From an uncultured Gemmatimonadales bacterium (GTDB lineage Bacteria > Gemmatimonadota > Gemmatimonadetes > Gemmatimonadales > GWC2-71-9): a stretch of DNA of 64,000 nucleotides. The position numbers and the translations under genes were made by a program. Location: NCBI GenBank assembly GCA_963695555.1, contig CAVOGR010000007.1:64001-128000 (forward strand). Reading direction: 5' to 3'. The notes below the pieces were generated by a model. The model ran no database searches. It had not been told where the DNA came from and worked only from the letters and a program-made list of their open reading frames with translations. How positions within the stretch are numbered: the first letter of the stretch is position 1; the number at the start of each line of letters is the position of its first letter. Positions 48,041 through 52,411 of this stretch are shown here, piece after piece.

Positions 48041-48123
48041 TGCCCCGCCTAGGACTCGACGCTGAGCGCAAGCGAGGCCGCGAGGAAGCGGCCGACCGAG
48101 CGCGAACCGAGCAGCGGTCCGCG
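48041..48123 (-). repeat. tRNA-Lys 3' fragment (att-like) with palindromic T-loop insert, copy 1
   Basis: 48041-48059 TGCCCCGCCTAGGACTCGA is identical to 52339-52357. It is followed by an insert homologous to 52206-52268. Confidence 0.85.
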
Positions 48124-48333
48124 TTTGGCTCGCGCGCTGGTGCTCTGGGTAATGATCGTGCTGGGCGTCATCGGTGCTGGCATTAGTGGCTGCGTCCACC
48201 GGGTTCGACGATCCCGCGCGTGCCCGGCAGGCGCTCGAGGCGGTCGCGCGACAGGCACTGTTCGACGTATTAGGAGCGACGCATAGGAGCTGGCGCATCC
48301 AGGGCGCCGGTTCATGAGAGGAATGGTGAAGCC

Positions 48334-48839
48334 ATGGACAGACAGTCGCTGGATCAGGTGTGGGACCAGTTCCGCCAGAAATACGGCGTCTACCTGCGCC
48401 TGCTCGAGTCGTTTCCTGAAGACCGCTACCACGGCCATCCTGTGCCGGGGATGCGCACACCCGCTCAGCTGGTGGCCCACGTCTCCGGCACCGTGGTCCG
48501 CGACATCGCCCAAGGAGTTGCGAAGGGCGCGATCACGGCGGACGAGTCGTCGGAGGACACGGTTGCGGCGGGCTTCACGACGAAGCAGGAGTTGCTCGGC
48601 TTCGCCCGGGCATGCTGGGACCAGGCGAATGCCGCCGTGGCGGGAATTCGGCGACGCGCAGCTCGAAGGCGGTGGTGGCGACGCCGTGGAACATGAGCTT
48701 CCCGGGATGGGTCGGCTTCAACATCATGAGCGACGAGTTCCTGCACCGCGGGCAGCTCTATGCCTTCCTGCGGGTGTGCGGTGTCGAGCCGCCATTCATC
48801 TGGGGCTTCGACCAGAACGCCCCCGGCTTTCGGCCCTAG
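48334..48839 (+). CDS. DinB family protein (frameshifted near 48648-48665)
   Basis: LLESFPED, PGMRTPAQLVAH, EFLH.RGQLYAFLR.CGVEPP. Two single-base insertions. Confidence 0.78.
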
Positions 48840-49060
48840 AGGTCGGCGCACGAAGGCGGCGCGGTGAGCGCCCCCCAGGAGAGCTGGCCTATCAATCTGC
48901 GTGGTACCCCGCTGCGGACTGGCACTGCCGAACCGATACCCTCGCAACGTCGTCCTGAACCACGGTCGAGGTGCGAGTGACATGACCGTGGTGACGGCGG
49001 TCGAATACTCCTCCTACGGAGTGAACTCGACCACAGCGGTCCGCGGAACGCCGTCAGCCG

Positions 49061-50012
49061 CTAGGCGCCCTCCGAGGTTGCGGGTACGTTGATGCCGAAC
49101 GTCCATTTCCACCCGTCGGCGGTGTTGACATAGACCGACGTGCCCCAAATGGGTCCCACCGTCTGGCCGTAGCAGCTGCCGTCGGCGGCACCCTTGAAGG
49201 TCAGGATACCGACGGTCGGCGAGAGCATCGTGCCCGCGGCGTCGGTGACGCTGACGCTCTTGACATCGCATCCGGTCCCCGTCCAGTCCTTCAATGCATC
49301 GGCCTTGGTGGCGAAGTAGGTGCCGAAGATGTTGATGAACGAAATCTCCCTCGCCGTCAGCTCCTCCATTCGGCTGGCGTCGTGTGCTCTCCAGGCCTCC
49401 CAGAGGGCCCTTCTCGACTTCGAGCATGGCATCGGTGCCAGCATCGCGAGCGGCCGGTTCAGACTCGACCGCTGGAGACGCCACCTTCCTGCCGCCCGGT
49501 TTCGCGGCGGCCGCTTGTGGATCGACAACAGGAGCGTTGGCGTGGAACGCGGCTCTCCACGTGTCGCCGTCGCGCACGTAGACGGTCGCCGCCCAACTGC
49601 TCGTCGGGACTTTCTGACCGCTGCACGTGCCGTCAACGGTTGCCTCATACGTGATCAGCGCCGCCTCGTCGCCGAGCGACCTCATCTGCTCGTTGGAGAT
49701 GGCGTAGCTCATGATCTCGCAGTCAGCACCGGCGTATTCCCGTGCCGCCGATTTCTTATCGAGCCTGCCGGCTGAGCCATAGCCAACGAACGCGTCAGAC
49801 AGGAAGGTATCCCAGAACCTCGCGTCCTTCGCCTTCCACGCCTCATAGGCACTCGTTTCGAGCGTCACGAGTGCATCGACGGTAGGTGCGGCTGGAACGG
49901 TCTGTTCCGTCGTGCTGGCGTCGTTCGCTCGGCTCGCCGGCGCGGGTCGGTCGCAGGCCGTGACGACGAGAGCGGCCGCCGCGGTTAGGACGAGGCACTT
50001 GATCGTGGCCAT
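49061..50012 (-). CDS. Lipoprotein with two DUF4440/NTF2-like domains (frameshift near 49408)
   Basis: Lipobox VTA-C. Two similar halves, YEAWKAKDA...ATVYVRDGDTWRAAFH and WEAWRAHDA...TSVYVNTADGWKWTF. Confidence 0.78.
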
Positions 50013-50145
50013 AGATTGTCTCCCCATGGGTTCCTGACATTGAATGCGCAGCCAAACGCGGCACGGGCCTTCCCGCGGCCGCCACCATGTCGGTCGGGGA
50101 TCAGTCCGGATTGCCGCCCGTAGCCTCGCCTGCGCGGACAATATA

Positions 50146-50253
50146 GACGAGTTCCTGCATCATCGCAGGCGGCTCTGTGCCTTCCTGCGGGTGCGCGGCG
50201 TCGAGCCGCCGTTCATCTCGGGCTTCGGCCAGAACGCGGCCGGGGTTTCGGCC
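50146..50253 (+). pseudogene. Degenerate duplicate of the 3' end of the DinB gene
   Basis: Aligns with 48732-48835 (GACGAGTTCCTGCA...TGCCTTCCTGCGGGTG...GTCGAGCCGCC.TTCATCT.GGGCTTCG.CCAGAACGC). Confidence 0.8.
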
Positions 50254-50288
50254 GCAGGGCAGTGCCGGGTCCACCGGGGCAACCGCTG

Positions 50289-50773
50289 CTATGGCAGACA
50301 GGCCCGAGGCAGACCCACCGGACTCGGTCCTACCCACAGATCGGCTTGGATGTCAGGAACGTCGCACACGAGCCGGAGCGCCCCGTCGGGGGTGACGTCC
50401 CTCAGCATATGCGTAGGGGAGGGCACTGCGCTCACTGTCAGGAAGACGTGAACTGAGGACCCTGCAAGACGCCCGAAACAGAAGCTCGTACGCGCCATCA
50501 ACCTGACTGTACGTGGATTTGAGTTCCTTCACGGTGGTGACAACTAGTCCCCTGGGATTCGGTCATACTGCATGGTCTCTTTCGCAAACCGTAACCCGGA
50601 TTCCGGGGACGGGGGTGGAGTCAAGAGACGAACAGACGGATCCCCGAATGGTGGTGACCATGGGCGGTGGATCTGGCGGAGGTCCAGCTGGACCTGTCGT
50701 CAACGCAACCAGCCGAGAGGACGGCTGCGACAGTGCCTGCTGCGATCACCGTGATGAATGGTCGGACTCGCAT
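50289..50773 (-). pseudogene. Disrupted lipoprotein gene
   Basis: GGGAGG RBS and MRVRPFITVIAAGTVAAVLSAG-C lipobox, then a frame change into GPAGPPPDPPPMVTTIRGSV. In-frame TGA at 50563-50565 and a further shift follow. Confidence 0.45.
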
Positions 50774-50810
50774 AACGCCTCCCGTGCGAGAGAGTCACGT
50801 CCGCGCGTTC

Positions 50811-51383
50811 CTAGAACGCGATGCTCAACCCGATGCCGAGTCCGTCGGGTTGTGGCACGACGCCCACGTGCACCCGGTCGAGCGGTACTTCCTCCCAGCG
50901 GTCGGACCGAATCAGCAGGCCGACCACGCCACCGAGCAGGGCCCCCGCCGGTGCGCCGATGAGGACGCCGATTCCCGCCGCCGACTGTCCACAACCGGAC
51001 CAAATGATGCAGAATTCCTGCGTCGAACCAATCACCCCTCCGATGACCCCACCGGCGATCAACCCGAGGCCGAATCCGGGCCAGAAGTTGCCTTTCTTCC
51101 CTTCGACCATCCACACCTGGGCGATGGATGACCTCGGAATAGCGAGTTCTGCGTCGGATGACTCGGCGCGGATGCGGAGCGTGTCGTCATCAACGGATTG
51201 AGCGTATCCGGTGCTGCGTCGTGGGGAACGGCTGTCGCGACACTCCGTGACTTGATTGTGCACCAGCTTGCACCGATAGGCCACGCGAACCCGCTGACCC
51301 TGCTCGAGCACCGCTGTCTGTGCGAAGCCAATCCTCGGCGTGGACAGCACAATCAGGACGATCGTTGTGAGAACGCGAGACAT
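50811..51383 (-). CDS. Secreted glycine-zipper-like protein
   Basis: GGAGGG RBS, signal peptide, GQRVRV, GLGLIAGGVIGGVIG / GALLGGVVG, C-terminal Phe (LGIGLSIAF). Confidence 0.75.
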   Translation of the reverse strand: MSRVLTTIVLIVLSTPRIGFAQTAVLEQGQRVRVAYRCKLVHNQVTECRDSRSPRRSTGYAQSVDDDTLRIRAESSDAELAIPRSSIAQVWMVEGKKGNFWPGFGLGLIAGGVIGGVIGSTQEFCIIWSGCGQSAAGIGVLIGAPAGALLGGVVGLLIRSDRWEEVPLDRVHVGVVPQPDGLGIGLSIAF

Positions 51384-51649
51384 GGGACCCTCCGGGTTTG
51401 GTCCGGCTCGACATCGGCCAGACTGAAGTTCGGACCCAGGCTCACGTTGGCCGATTGGTGTCAAGTGAAGGTCAAGTCGGCCACGACCCTGCACGGAACG
51501 GGTGCTACACGGGATGGCAGATGCGGCTTGATCTCCACTTGCCGCAGGGCTCCCAAGATGTGACTGGAGGATCTGGGTCAACCGAGAGGAAATCATGTCA
51601 CGTCTTCGTAGGCTCCACCCCGTGACCTTCGACCTGGAGGGAGGGAGCG

Positions 51650-52133
51650 ATGAGATTCGTGCGACTGTGGTGTTACTGGATTCTGTTCTGCTGCGCGTGT
51701 GGCTCAGACTCCCCGACCGCACCGATGCCACCGTTGATAGAGGGTTCAGGTATGCTGCCGCCCTTTCCCCGCCTGACTCAGTCTTTGGAAGCACGGCATC
51801 CATCTCCGGGTCACATGCATGGGCCGTCTTGGCTCAGGCGCTAGAGTGCACATGGGGCAGGGAGGTCAGGACGGAGTCACGGCCCATCTCATGCTTTCAA
51901 TGGATGTACCTGCTCTGCAGTCTGGACTCCAACTGGGCGTCCATGATGTAGGGTCAGCCGTTCTGTGGGAATTTCATGGGCTCAGAAGGTGGGGCAGGCC
52001 ACCAGGTGTTCCTTCTCCGAGCCCGGGTACCATAACAATTACGGCGGTTCGCGGTGATGGCTTCTCAGCGGACTTCTCGGTGATGCTCACGTCCGTGACG
52101 ATCTTCTGGCAGCGCCAAAGGTGCCGTGGGTGA
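51650..52133 (+). pseudogene. Disrupted lipoprotein-like gene
   Basis: GGAGGGAGGG RBS and signal plus C-GSDSPTAP. Plausible coding continues across three frames; the end is approximate. Confidence 0.4.
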
Positions 52134-52186
52134 GATCCGGTAGCCCTCATGGTCCTCCGACGTCTTGTCACACGATCTATCACGCA

Positions 52187-52298
52187 GAGCCCACCTGGGA
52201 CTCGACGCTGAGCGCGAGCGAGTCCGCCGGAGGCGGGCGACGGAGCGCGAACCGAACGACGGCCCGCGGCCAGCGGGTCGCCGCAACCTAGGACCTCC
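52187..52298 (-). repeat. Degenerate tRNA-Lys 3' half interrupted by an ~80-bp palindromic insert, copy 2
   Basis: GCCCACCTGGGACTCGA | insert 52206-52284 | AACCTAGGACCTCC, compared with the tRNA sequence GCCCCGCCTAGGACTCGA|ACCTAGAACCTCC. Confidence 0.78.
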
Positions 52299-52300
52299 GC

Positions 52301-52331
52301 AAAACAAAACGGCGACCCGCTACAGGTCGCC
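52301..52331 (-). terminator. Terminator of the tRNA operon
   Basis: GGCGACC-7 nt-GGTCGCC stem followed by GTTTTGTTTT on the minus strand. Confidence 0.8.
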
Positions 52332-52338
52332 GAGTAAG

Positions 52339-52411
52339 TGCCCCGCCTAGGACTCGAACCTAGAACCTCCTGATTAAGAGTCAGCTGCTCTACCAATTGA
52401 GCTAGCGGGGC
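52339..52411 (-). tRNA. tRNA-Lys(CTT)
   Basis: GCCCCGC acceptor, TAGCTCAATTGGTAGAGC D arm, CTGA-CTCTTAA-TCAG anticodon arm, GTTCGAGTC T loop. CCA not encoded. Confidence 0.97.

What the first reader, a model, noticed from the sequence alone, without database searches (positions are those of the whole stretch)
48041..52411. tRNA-Lys 3' copies with a shared palindromic insert in the T-loop bracket an integrase-less islet
Seen in sequence: 19 bp of the tRNA-Lys 3' end (52339-52357) recur exactly at 48041-48059, with their own terminator (47990-48019). A degenerate copy sits at 52187-52298, right after the tRNA operon terminator. In both copies the tRNA sequence breaks at the same T-loop position (GGACTCGA|) and continues with a homologous GC-rich insert (CGCTGAGCGCrAGCGAG-hairpin-CGACsGAGCGCGAACCGA). 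In copy 2 the tRNA sequence resumes about 80 bp later (AACCTAGGACCTCC). The inner hairpin differs in sequence but keeps pairing (GGCCGC/GCGGCC vs GTCCGCC/GGCGGGC). Between the copies lie five small genes (four with export signals, plus DinB) and no recombinase. Established: tyrosine integrases often use tRNA 3' ends, including the T-loop, as attB and leave a displaced fragment. Inference: these are either att scars that were then hit by a T-loop-targeting miniature element, or structured recombination sites of a tRNA-anchored, integron-like gene-capture system acting in trans.
Basis: partly seen in the sequence, partly recalled or inferred. Interest (0 to 1): 0.78.

Follow-up and report, generated by a model that had tools for sequence, protein, structure and literature searches.

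The report
Hairpin module splitting spare tRNA ends
Downstream of a lysine tRNA gene in an uncultivated soil/sediment bacterium, leftover copies of the tRNA's end are split at one exact loop position by a conserved, folded, gene-less ~75-base module that recurs at several tRNA genes in related genera and brackets small, variable, enzyme-less gene islets, which looks like a so far undescribed kind of small mobile DNA.

Summary
A 21-nt exact copy of the tRNA-Lys(CTT) 3' end (48039-48059 = 52337-52357) and a degenerate copy (52187-52205) are each followed, from the same T-loop position, by a ~78-nt unit 'U' (48060-48137; 52206-52283). After the second unit the T-arm sequence resumes (52284-98).

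U is neither a genome-wide REP nor a one-off. It has only these 2 copies in this Gemmatimonadales genome. A covariance model finds it in 10 of 151 genomes of the family, at tRNA-Lys(CTT), Lys(TTT), Met(CAT) and Ser(TGA). Of 19 copies, 15 abut a tRNA 3' end cut at that T-loop position. One hairpin shows compensatory changes.

Congeners carry 0, ~1.2 or ~4.1 kb between the two units. No recombinase lies in or beside any copy examined. The genome's real integron is elsewhere and has unrelated attC sites.

Best reading (about 45%) is a non-autonomous, T-loop-targeting module moved in trans as a folded single strand. Its long form carries a replacement tRNA 3' end, so units pile up in tandem and bracket captured DNA. 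The main rival is classical integrase att scars (CIME-like). The enzyme is not identified.

The parts
47998..48019 (-). term0: intrinsic-terminator-like hairpin plus T-run following the distal tRNA fragment. Conserved with the flanking kinase gene in congeners.
   Evidence: Synteny with G002 and G004.
48039..48059 (-). F1: 21-nt exact copy of the tRNA-Lys(CTT) 3' end, from T-loop position ~56 to 2 nt past the discriminator.
   Evidence: D15, 100%. (19/19).
48060..48137 (.). UA: structured unit U (Box1 CGCTGAGCGC.AGCGAG, hairpin 1, Box2 GACCGAGCGCGAACCG, hairpin 2). It abuts F1 exactly at ..ACTCGA|.
   Evidence: R1 68.5 bits, E 1e-10. 92% identical to G002 over 105 nt including term0 and F1.
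48138..52186 (.). Islet between the two units. It is absent in G002 and replaced by a different ~1.2-kb segment in the G004-type contig L083. No recombinase.
   Evidence: The X2 sediment contig joining 48122 to 52337 is the G002-type allele.
48334..48839 (+). DinB-superfamily gene read in two frames (48334-48696 and 48612-48839).
   Evidence: PF12867 E 2.2e-8; PF05163 E 0.0064, below its cut-off.
49061..50012 (-). Two DUF4440/SnoaL-like domains in two frames. The upstream one starts with a lipoprotein-like signal.
   Evidence: PF14534 E 3e-14 and 1.5e-11. Translation.
48215..50102 (.). DinB+DUF4440 block, 90% identical to a block in G004. There it sits at another intergenic site, between homologues of window 40431 and 41754.
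50161..50243 (+). Extra copy of the DinB C-terminal coding end (87% to 48744-48826).
   Evidence: D1
50811..51383 (-). 190-aa ORF with signal-peptide-like start and glycine-rich C-terminal half. No family.
52187..52205 (-). F2: degenerate copy of the tRNA 3' end, ending at the same T-loop position and abutting UB.
   Evidence: 14/19. (D6).
52206..52283 (.). UB: second copy of U.
   Evidence: R1 71.4 bits, E 3.8e-11. Fold with two hairpins.
52284..52298 (-). R: the rest of the T-loop plus the T-stem 5' strand and variable-loop bases of tRNA-Lys (CAACCTAGGACCTCC). Together R+UB+F2 form a tRNA 3' fragment split in the T-loop.
   Evidence: The same arrangement occurs in G002, L083, G083, G145, G156, G150.
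52310..52332 (-). term1: terminator of the tRNA operon, between the intact tRNA and R.
52338..52411 (-). Intact tRNA-Lys(CTT), last gene of a His-Trp-Glu-Glu-Lys tRNA operon.

Best explanation
U is the conserved, folded end of a family of small, gene-less (non-autonomous) mobile DNA units. In one family of Gemmatimonadales these units insert at one position of the T-loop of tRNA genes, between T55 and C56 in the tRNA sense.

**Two forms are seen.**
- The short form is U alone. It breaks the T-arm it enters.
- The long form, read in the tRNA sense, is [tRNA 3' end - trailer/terminator - optional cargo - T-stem 5' strand (R) - U]. When it lands in a tRNA gene it supplies a new 3' end and so heals the gene. 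The old 3' end (F) is pushed outward and now abuts U.

**Consequences of repeated events.** Tandem arrays form: tRNA - t - R - U - F - t - R - U - F ... DNA caught between units becomes an enzyme-less islet.

**Reading of this window.** tRNA-Lys + term1 + R + UB is the proximal unit. F2 + the 4.1-kb islet + UA is a second unit. F1 + term0 is the original tRNA end with its terminator.

**Shown**
- The anatomy and the fixed junction.
- Occurrence at four tRNA species.
- The arrays.
- The variable cargo.
- The lack of a recombinase in cis.
- The hairpin covariation.

**Inferred**
- Mobility itself.
- Movement as a folded single strand (an HUH-type or structure-reading recombinase), because the stems keep pairing while their sequence changes.
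- Action of an enzyme in trans, or one since lost in this genus.
For: **1. Fixed junction and orientation.**
- 15 of 19 U copies have a tRNA 3' end stopping at ..YGA| on the Box1 side.
- 14 of 19 have (G/C)AACC.., the rest of the T-arm, on the hairpin-2 side.
- 11 left flanks are at least 17/19 identical to an intact tRNA in the same locus.

**2. Four tRNA species.** Lys(ctt), Lys(ttt), Met(cat) and Ser(tga).

**3. U similarity does not follow tRNA type.** G083 Lys(CTT) is 86-88% identical to G132 Ser(TGA), but 69% to G156 Lys(CTT) and 53-65% to this genus.

**4. Patchy distribution.** 10 of 151 family genomes. In an order-wide sample, 2 of 151, both in this genus, with 0 of 62 and 0 of 27 in the two sister families. 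G089, a congener of U-bearing G150, has the syntenic tRNA-Lys with an unrelated trailer and no module in the 85 nt before its contig ends.

**5. Regular arrays of diverged units.** G083 tRNA-Met has two full units. G150 and G156 have decayed further units whose trailers are homologous to each other.

**6. U alone.** Inside a full-length tRNA-Ser in G132 (ARAGORN calls the tRNA once U is removed in silico). Inside a displaced half-tRNA in G150. In tandem in G002.

**7. Variable, recombinase-free cargo between units.**
- 0, ~1.2 and ~4.1 kb in three congeners.
- One GxxExxY/PDDEXK_3 gene in G083.
- 6.4 kb in G150.
- 74 ORFs around 9 other loci hold no recombinase.

**8. Structure is kept while sequence changes.** Hairpin 1 has 15 compensatory cells and 0 of 500 shuffles as high. 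Whole-U DNA folds have z of -2 or lower in 12 of 17 copies.

**9. No known RNA family**.
Against: - No enzyme was found. G000 holds only XerC-like, XerD, a truncated Xer-like gene, a split integron integrase and one IS200-like Y1 gene flanked by a different REP. It has no serine recombinase and no Y2 transposase.
- The IS91-family elements in some U-bearing genomes have unrelated ends. They occur in only 3 of 10 U-bearing genomes, against 21 of 141 others.
- No excised circle and no same-population empty site was seen. The only data were assembled contigs of public runs, and the skipping contigs come from a G002-like relative.
- Copy number is very low, 1 to 5 per genome, which is unlike an active MITE.
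- UA and UB are orthologous among congeners at 82-92%, so in this genus the units are old. The differences in cargo could come from ordinary recombination between them.
- The DinB-DUF4440 cargo came from a site 8 kb away on the wrong side for simple read-through capture.
- Palindromes can keep pairing through templated repair, without selection.
- All genomes are MAGs, several of them fragmented.
Confidence: 0.45

Rival explanations
1. Classical att scars. U plus R is the element-side arm of attP of a family of tRNA-specific tyrosine-integrase islands that cross over in the T-loop. The modules are attR junctions. Cargo-less units are attP-only remnants, or integrase-less cis-mobilisable elements (CIME-like) that accreted in tandem. 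The integrase has been lost or sits on an element missing from these assemblies.
For: - The topology is what integration of a circle [F-t-cargo-R-U] into the tRNA predicts. The tRNA is regenerated, a displaced 3' fragment lies at the far end, and the original terminator follows the distal fragment.
- tRNA-Lys(CTT) is used by other elements in the genus: G004 has two further 3' halves starting at the anticodon loop.
- Two repeated boxes (GAGCGAG / GCGAGCG) about 35-40 nt apart could be arm-type binding sites.
- Tandem accretion at t(m)RNA genes is described in the literature (listings and abstract starts only: PMC3146451, PMC5704250, PMC4383910).
Against: - No integrase lies in or within about 3 kb of any of the loci examined, and no candidate exists in G000.
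- The R-U junction shares at most 1-2 nt with the U-F junction, rather than a 6-8-bp overlap.
- Compensatory change in hairpin stems is not expected of double-stranded arm sites.
- U alone inside a full-length tRNA-Ser is not an integration product.
- Units of only 130-230 bp, repeated with the same architecture in several genera, are hard to get by independent deletions.
- No viral contig carries U.
Confidence: 0.25
2. An integron-like system. The resident integron integrase, or another structure-reading tyrosine recombinase, uses R-U-F as a folded attC-like site and the T-loop GTT as a secondary target. It captures genes beside the tRNA in trans.
For: - Integron integrases are common in the family, over the cut-off in 77 of 151 genomes.
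- G000 has an integron with at least 9 attC sites.
- U keeps structure rather than sequence.
- The T-loop contains GTT, the core of integron crossover sites (recalled knowledge).
Against: - The attC sites of this genome (GYCTAAC...GTTAGRC, ~112-120 nt) are unrelated to U. R2 with filters off over the integron region scored at best 18.9 bits, E 0.045.
- U has no RYYYAAC...GTTRRRY ends in the right order.
- The junction lies after TT, not between G and TT.
- Islets hold several genes, not one ORF per site.
- There is no enrichment of IntI among U-bearing genomes: 5 of 10 over the cut-off, 6 with G000's split gene.
Confidence: 0.07
3. No dedicated machinery. An ancient insertion or duplication behind tRNA genes is inherited vertically. 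Arrays arise by unequal crossing-over or slippage. Islets are swapped by homologous recombination between the conserved flanks and units. U may serve as an RNA or DNA structure, for example as an insulator or terminator behind tRNA operons.
For: - Within this genus the units are orthologous and sit at one locus only.
- The cargo block moved from a nearby chromosomal site.
- An RNA-library contig is identical to 52116-52269, though DNA carry-over is not excluded.
- Trailers within the G150 and G156 arrays are homologous to each other.
Against: - Homologous U sits at four different tRNA species, and its similarity ignores tRNA type and genus.
- Presence is patchy: 10 of 151 genomes, with a U-free congener of G150.
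- Array units have different hairpin and trailer sequences.
- The same exact T-loop junction everywhere calls for a site-specific process.
Confidence: 0.15

Closest known systems
Genomic islands integrated in tRNA/tmRNA genes by tyrosine integrases, T-loop sublocation (Islander-type). PMC4383910, abstract start seen; the sublocation classes are recalled.
   Same: The target is a tRNA gene. The gene is regenerated by incoming sequence. A displaced 3' fragment marks the far end. Tandem piling-up occurs behind the tRNA.
   Different: No integrase in cis or identifiable in trans. The displaced fragment includes the T-stem 5' strand, separated from the rest by a conserved folded ~75-nt unit. The two junctions share at most 1-2 nt. 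Units can be as small as 130-230 bp, or U alone.
CIMEs / site-specific accretion of integrase-less, att-flanked elements (streptococcal ICE literature). PMC5704250 and PMC7563491 seen as search listings only; the concept is recalled.
   Same: Integrase-less DNA flanked by att-like repeats at a tRNA-Lys(CTT) 3' end, arranged in tandem and presumably moved in trans.
   Different: No cognate ICE or integrase is present. The repeat is a structured module shared between different tRNA targets.
IS91-family rolling-circle elements and one-ended transposition (PMC13181058, passages read).
   Same: No target duplication. The target tetranucleotide is GTTC/CTTG, and the T-loop reads GGTTCGAG. Subterminal palindromes. 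Single-strand circles. Failure to terminate co-mobilises adjacent DNA, which would yield long forms with one fixed and one variable end.
   Different: The ends of the IS91-family elements in these genomes are unrelated to U. No Y2 transposase is found in 7 of 10 U-bearing genomes. U is ~75 nt with two conserved boxes.
Folded single-strand recombination sites: integron attC and the CTX-phage attP(+) hairpin. Recalled; IntegronFinder paper PMC4889954 seen as a listing and abstract start.
   Same: Structure is conserved while sequence is free, and the sites bound gene-size cargo without a recombinase in each unit.
   Different: No attC end motifs, a different junction, and no tie to the resident integron.
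REP/BIME and IS200/IS605-derived palindromic mini-elements (recalled).
   Same: Small, GC-rich, hairpin-forming, gene-less, with no terminal inverted repeats and no clear target duplication.
   Different: One to five copies per genome instead of tens to hundreds, and almost always inside a tRNA T-arm. The only Y1 gene of G000 is flanked by another repeat.
Earlier notes of this scan on hairpin modules in T- or D-loops of partial tRNA copies in CPR bacteria and an archaeon (AI notes, unchecked).
   Same: The same architecture: an intact tRNA followed by a partial copy split at a loop by a structured, gene-less, lineage-specific module, with no enzyme found.
   Different: Other phyla and unrelated module sequences. 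One note ties its module to a mini GIY-YIG nuclease cassette. Here only one islet (G083) holds a nuclease-fold gene, GxxExxY.

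Membership tests
tRNA-integrating genomic island (tyrosine integrase) | Integrase gene inside the island, usually next to the tRNA | tested here: not met
   Pfam on 11 islet ORFs found none. None in the G150 6.4-kb island. None among 74 ORFs around 9 other loci.
tRNA-integrating genomic island (tyrosine integrase) | Direct repeat of the tRNA 3' part at the far end of the island, with the tRNA intact | tested here: met
   21-nt exact repeat. tRNA intact.
tRNA-integrating genomic island (tyrosine integrase) | Both junctions share the 6-8-bp overlap region | tested here: not met
   The R|U and U|F junctions share only A or GA.
CIME / trans-mobilised att-flanked element | A cognate integrase-bearing element using the same att site in the same or related genomes | tested here: not met
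   G000 tyrosine recombinases are Xer-type or IntI only. No U in viral contigs. None seen beside U in 10 genomes.
Integron cassette array | attC with RYYYAAC ... GTTRRRY ends and imperfect overall palindrome; intI adjacent | tested here: not met
   The true attC sites of G000 differ. R2 finds no U there. intI is ~737 kb away.
MITE / REP | Many dispersed copies per genome; terminal inverted repeats or a REP-RAYT pairing | tested here: not met
   2 copies in G000, both at one locus. At most 4-5 in G083 at two loci. The Y1 gene has another REP.
IS91-family derivative | Ends matching oriIS/terIS of a resident IS91-family element; Y2 transposase present | tested here: not met
   14 contigs with such elements hold no U-like sequence and their ends differ. 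Y2_Tnp is in 3 of 10 U-bearing genomes and was not found in G000, though the control genomes did not ring.
IS91-family derivative | Insertion next to GTTC/CTTG without target duplication | tested here: inconclusive
   In the tRNA sense the unit follows ..GGTTC (g69, g75, g84) or ..GGTTG (this genus), and 0-2 nt are duplicated. Target rule taken from PMC13181058.
tRNA intron | Sits in the functional, only copy of a tRNA gene and is removed from the RNA | tested here: inconclusive
   In G132 the only tRNA-Ser(tga)-like sequence found carries U, but the MAG is 90% complete in 370 contigs. All other copies lie in fragments beside an intact gene. No RNA data.
Known RNA family (Rfam 15) | Match to a curated covariance model | tested here: not met
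   Only tRNA hits in window 46000-54000 and in five other loci.

The most novel reading that the evidence does not exclude
U belongs to a general, undescribed class of 'self-healing' tRNA-loop-targeting mobile modules. These are tiny folded single-strand elements with no gene of their own. They insert at one loop position of tRNA genes and carry a spare tRNA end that repairs the gene, and by read-through or recombination they drag neighbouring genes along. That would amount to an enzyme-in-trans gene-capture system anchored at tRNA genes. Analogous, non-homologous modules noted in CPR bacteria and archaea would be its counterparts. A bolder sub-case is that in G132 the module sits in the only tRNA-Ser(UGA) gene and is removed from, or tolerated in, the RNA.
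Probability: 0.3. Interest if true: 0.85.

Novelty: new variant of a known kind. Interest (0 to 1): 0.7.

Why it matters
tRNA genes are the classic landing sites of genomic islands, and the textbook picture needs an integrase in the island. Here a conserved folded module marks the junctions of integrase-less units and islets, at one exact T-loop position, at several tRNAs and in several genera.

If the module is mobile, it would be a new and very small vehicle for gene gain next to tRNA genes. It would also be a case where insertion is neutral because the element carries the replacement gene end. And it would give a handle, through the two conserved boxes and the folded stems, for finding the enzyme.

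It would also link similar unexplained modules seen in distant phyla. On the practical side, island-finding tools that look for displaced tRNA fragments would misplace boundaries at such split fragments.

Tried and rejected
1. **Ordinary genome-wide REP.** Rejected: only 2 copies in G000.
2. **Wide occurrence.**
   - The U pattern in genome contigs gave 7 loci. Two are real (the G002 and G004 records). Five are coding-sequence chance hits in Actinomycetota.
   - Metagenome contigs gave 4 loci, of which 1 is real (L083).
   - Viral contigs gave 1 chance hit and then 0.
3. **Weak BLAST hits in other genera.** By eye these were GC-rich coding matches.
4. **Integron attC.** Rejected.
5. **IS91-family MITE.** Ends unrelated.
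6. **RAYT/IS200 link.** The single Y1 gene is flanked by another repeat.
7. **Serine recombinase.** None found in G000, which is 87% complete.
8. **GxxExxY nuclease as the general driver.** None in G000; seen in one islet only.
9. **F2 as a foreign tRNA end.** Dropped. The similar 19-mers in G012 and G164 lie in non-tRNA, probably coding sequence. Many 2-mismatch hits are therefore probably chance.
10. **Empty-site comparison for G150 tRNA-Lys(TTT).** The G089 contig ends at the tRNA.
11. **Public runs.** Only assembled contigs were available, none holding more than 24% of the words. There was no circle junction. The skipping contigs carry G002-like substitutions. Cover in an RNA library does not show transcription.
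12. **Searching relatives of G083 and the genus of G150.** No new copies.
13. **Literature.** Searches found no description of a hairpin module in T-loops of bacterial tRNA fragments. One search failed on a non-plain character.

Full report
**1. The observation**

The window is G000:C7:64001-128000, from a 3.57-Mb, 14-contig MAG that is 87% complete. Record titles of two congeners place it in the Gemmatimonadales.

tRNA-Lys(ctt) lies at 52338-52411 on the minus strand. It is the last gene of a His-Trp-Glu-Glu-Lys tRNA operon.

- A 21-nt exact repeat joins 48039-48059 to 52337-52357.
- From the same T-loop position (..GGACTCGA|), the distal copy and a degenerate copy (52187-52205, 14/19) run into homologous GC-rich sequence (D5/D6).
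- I call this sequence U: UA at 48060-48137 and UB at 52206-52283.
- After UB the tRNA sequence resumes (CAACCTAGGACCTCC, 52284-52298).
- Terminator-like hairpins follow the tRNA (52332-52310) and the distal fragment (48019-47998), both on the tRNA strand.

**2. The same locus in congeners**

G002 (98% complete, 10 contigs) is collinear with the window from about 26 kb to 53.6 kb but lacks 48124-52184.

- In G002 the order is term0 - F1 - UA - UB - R - term1 - tRNA-Lys. Two tandem units sit inside one split tRNA 3' fragment. Tandem Repeats Finder gives period 80, 1.9 copies, 82% matches.
- A metagenome contig of the G004 type (L083) shows term0 - F1 - UA - ~1.2 kb - UB - R - term1 - tRNA end. 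The ~1.2 kb holds one 286-aa lipoprotein-like ORF with a weak Peptidase_M23 match.
- So three congeners carry 0, ~1.2 and ~4.1 kb between UA and UB. The right junction is always exactly at |CGCTGAGCGC.

The G000 islet is a mosaic. Positions 48215-50102 (DinB-like plus two DUF4440 domains) are 90% identical to a block in G004. There the block lies between homologues of window 40431 and 41754, another intergenic site about 8 kb away. A second copy of the DinB C-terminal end lies at 50161-50243.

Pfam finds no recombinase in 11 islet ORFs. Many genes of the window are split between frames, so the frameshifts in DinB and DUF4440 may be assembly errors.

**3. How far U reaches**

- *This genome.* BLAST and two covariance models find U only at these two places in G000.
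- *Pattern scan.* A 23-base U pattern in one genome per species of GTDB found only the G002 and G004 records; the other five hits lie in coding sequence. In the metagenome collection it found only L083.
- *Covariance model R1.* Built from 10 copies, it found U in 10 of 151 sampled genomes of the family, in eight genera.
- *Covariance model R2.* Built from 18 copies, it found U in an order-wide sample in this genus only: 2 of 151 genomes, with 0 of 62 and 0 of 27 in the sister families.
- *Rfam.* No matching family.

**4. What U looks like elsewhere**

In every clear case the order on the strand opposite to the tRNA is: terminator - F - U - R - terminator - intact tRNA. F is the tRNA 3' end down to the T-loop. 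R is the rest of the T-arm.

| tRNA | Genomes |
|---|---|
| Lys(CTT) | G083, G145, G156, G150 |
| Lys(TTT) | G150 |
| Met(CAT) | G083 |
| tRNA cut by a contig end | G173 |

Of 19 copies:
- 15 have a tRNA 3' end on the Box1 side. Eleven of these are at least 17/19 identical to an intact tRNA in the same locus.
- 14 have (G/C)AACC.. on the other side.
- Two (G141, G155) have no recognisable tRNA flank.

Orientation never varies.

Arrays occur in three forms:
- G083 tRNA-Met has two complete, diverged units.
- G150 and G156 have further decayed units.
- G145 has a tandem duplicate of F with its flank.

U occurs alone three times:
- in tandem in G002;
- inside a displaced half-tRNA that reaches the anticodon loop in G150;
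- inside a full-length type-II tRNA in G132. ARAGORN calls this tRNA-Ser(tga) once U is cut out in a script.

No other tRNA-Ser(tga) was found in G132; the other hits are tRNA-Cys and tRNA-Ser(cga). That MAG is 90% complete in 370 contigs, so this stays open.

**5. Structure of U**

U has a fixed order of parts:
- Box1: CGCNGAGC.GAGCGAG
- hairpin 1
- Box2: GACCCGAAGCGAGCG, or GACCGAGCGCGAACCG in this genus
- hairpin 2, which abuts R

Hairpin 1 (6 bp):
- 96.3% of 108 cells are paired.
- Four of the six pairs change on both sides, giving 15 such cells.
- None of 500 shuffles reaches this.
- Slid controls drop to 28-50% paired.

Hairpin 2 has unrelated sequences but is predicted in most copies. 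Whole-unit DNA folds have z of -2 or lower in 12 of 17, using mononucleotide shuffles.

Box identity ignores tRNA type. G083 Lys(CTT) is 86-88% identical to G132 Ser(TGA) and 84-86% to G150 Lys(TTT). It is 69% identical to G156 Lys(CTT) and 53-65% to this genus.

**6. The search for an enzyme**

In cis: none in the G000 islet, none in the 6.4-kb G150 island (kinase, solute-binding protein and unknowns), and none among 74 ORFs around nine loci. The G083 islet holds one GxxExxY/PDDEXK_3 gene. G000 has none.

G000 as a whole holds the following:
- XerC-like and XerD genes.
- A Xer-like gene cut by a low-GC, apparently chimeric contig end.
- One IS200-like Y1 gene flanked by another repeat.
- A split integron integrase.
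- No serine recombinase.
- No Y2 transposase found, though the control genomes did not ring for that family.

The integron is real. At least 9 attC-like repeats (GYCTAAC...GTTAGRC) run to the contig end, and they are unrelated to U. Integron integrase passes its cut-off in 77 of 151 family genomes and in 5 of 10 U-bearing ones, or 6 with G000's split gene.

Two-gene IS91-family elements (a tyrosine recombinase plus a Y2 transposase) are multi-copy in G083, G145 and G150. They also occur in 21 of 141 U-free genomes. Their contigs hold nothing U-like.

**7. Reads**

Only assembled contigs of public runs were on hand, with at most 24% of the words held.

- One sediment contig joins 48122 to 52337 and carries G002-like substitutions. 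A relative with the empty arrangement therefore co-occurs with G000-type contigs.
- An RNA-library contig joins 48123 to 52310, and another is identical to 52116-52269. DNA carry-over cannot be excluded.
- No circle junction was seen.

**8. Interpretation**

Four things are hard to reconcile with vertical inheritance of one old scar:
- the exact, orientation-fixed junction in the T-loop;
- occurrence at four tRNA species;
- similarity that ignores tRNA type;
- patchy presence, including a U-free congener (G089) with the syntenic tRNA-Lys and an unrelated trailer.

They point instead to a site-specific, mobile module.

What is inserted, read in the tRNA sense, always ends with Box1 next to F. 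It begins either at hairpin 2 (U alone) or at a tRNA 3' end (F - trailer - cargo - R - U). The long form regenerates the tRNA it enters. This would explain why almost all surviving copies are long forms lying behind an intact tRNA, and why units pile up.

Either of two routes yields the same topology:
- integration of a circle [F-t-cargo-R-U];
- a rolling-circle or peel-and-paste event with one fixed end that runs on to the next T-loop.

The IS91 family shows that such read-through co-mobilises adjacent DNA and targets GTTC without duplication (PMC13181058, passages). That is an analogy, not membership.

Compensatory change in the stems favours recognition of a folded single strand over double-stranded arm sites. 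Templated repair of palindromes could mimic this.

In this genus the units look old: UA and UB are orthologous among congeners. Present-day differences in cargo may owe as much to ordinary recombination as to the original mechanism.

**9. Comparison and novelty**

The closest described things are:
- tRNA-integrating islands and their integrase-less CIME derivatives;
- IS91-type one-ended transposition;
- folded single-strand sites such as attC.

Defining features of each were tested and not met; see the membership table. Full-text searches found no description of such a module.

Earlier AI notes of this scan report the same architecture with unrelated modules in CPR bacteria and an archaeon. 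I did not check them; they are leads only.

I file the finding as a new variant of a known kind (tRNA-anchored mobile DNA). I give about 30% to the reading that it represents a new class.

Noticed in passing
outside the window: G000:C7:~852590-859215 (L144 13290-19916): A genuine chromosomal integron. The integron-integrase gene is split over frames (TIGR02249: 218.5, 128.3 and 67.8 bits for different parts). It is followed by at least 9 attC-like repeats of ~112-120 nt with GYCTAAC...GTTAGRC ends, running to the contig end. Integron integrase passes its cut-off in 77 of 151 genomes of the family.
   Followed up: partly
G083 contigs C493, C528, C437, C555, C460; G150 C338, C399; G145 C264, C543 (L154-L162, L167): Multi-copy two-gene elements: a ~300-320-aa tyrosine recombinase directly followed by a ~400-411-aa IS91-family Y2 transposase (PF04986, 200-230 bits). 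Y2_Tnp is present in 24 of 151 family genomes.
   Followed up: partly
window 44753-47992 (-), 48334-48839 (+), 49061-50012 (-): A Ser/Thr kinase gene, the DinB-like gene and the DUF4440 gene are each split over two or three frames. This suggests indel errors of the assembly rather than pseudogenes.
   Followed up: no
window 40431-41754 versus 48215-50102: The DinB-DUF4440 block lies at a different intergenic site in G004. G000 has a ~1.3-kb membrane-protein-like ORF region at that site. The region as a whole is flexible.
   Followed up: partly
window 52440-52510; L032 1860-2000 and 2190-2270: Spacers between the tRNA genes hold inverted GCTATC(A/G)GCTATC-type repeats (arms 52450-52467 / 52488-52505, 89% complementary). 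They are expanded in G002.
   Followed up: no
G004 loci L060 (~600-645) and L079 (2077-2127): Two further tRNA-Lys(CTT) 3' halves that begin at the anticodon loop or stem and carry no U. They look like scars of other elements using the same tRNA.
   Followed up: partly
L124 (G132:C32) 1480-1646: A full-length tRNA-Ser(tga) interrupted by U in its T-loop. It is the only tRNA-Ser(tga)-like sequence found in that 90%-complete MAG.
   Followed up: partly
L140 (G000:C12) ~4090-5743: The contig end drops to low GC right after a truncated Xer-like gene. This is probably a chimeric join in the assembly.
   Followed up: no
L143 (G000:C3) 2900-3700: An IS200-like Y1 gene (NF033573, 72.5 bits) flanked by copies of a GCGGCTGAAGCCGC-containing repeat in both orientations. 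This is a REP/RAYT-like arrangement unrelated to U.
   Followed up: partly
L105 (G145:C184), reverse strand ~960-1300: Tandem duplication of ~175 nt comprising the tRNA-Lys 3' fragment with its downstream flank and terminator. The junction lies at the same T-loop position but has no U between the two copies.
   Followed up: no
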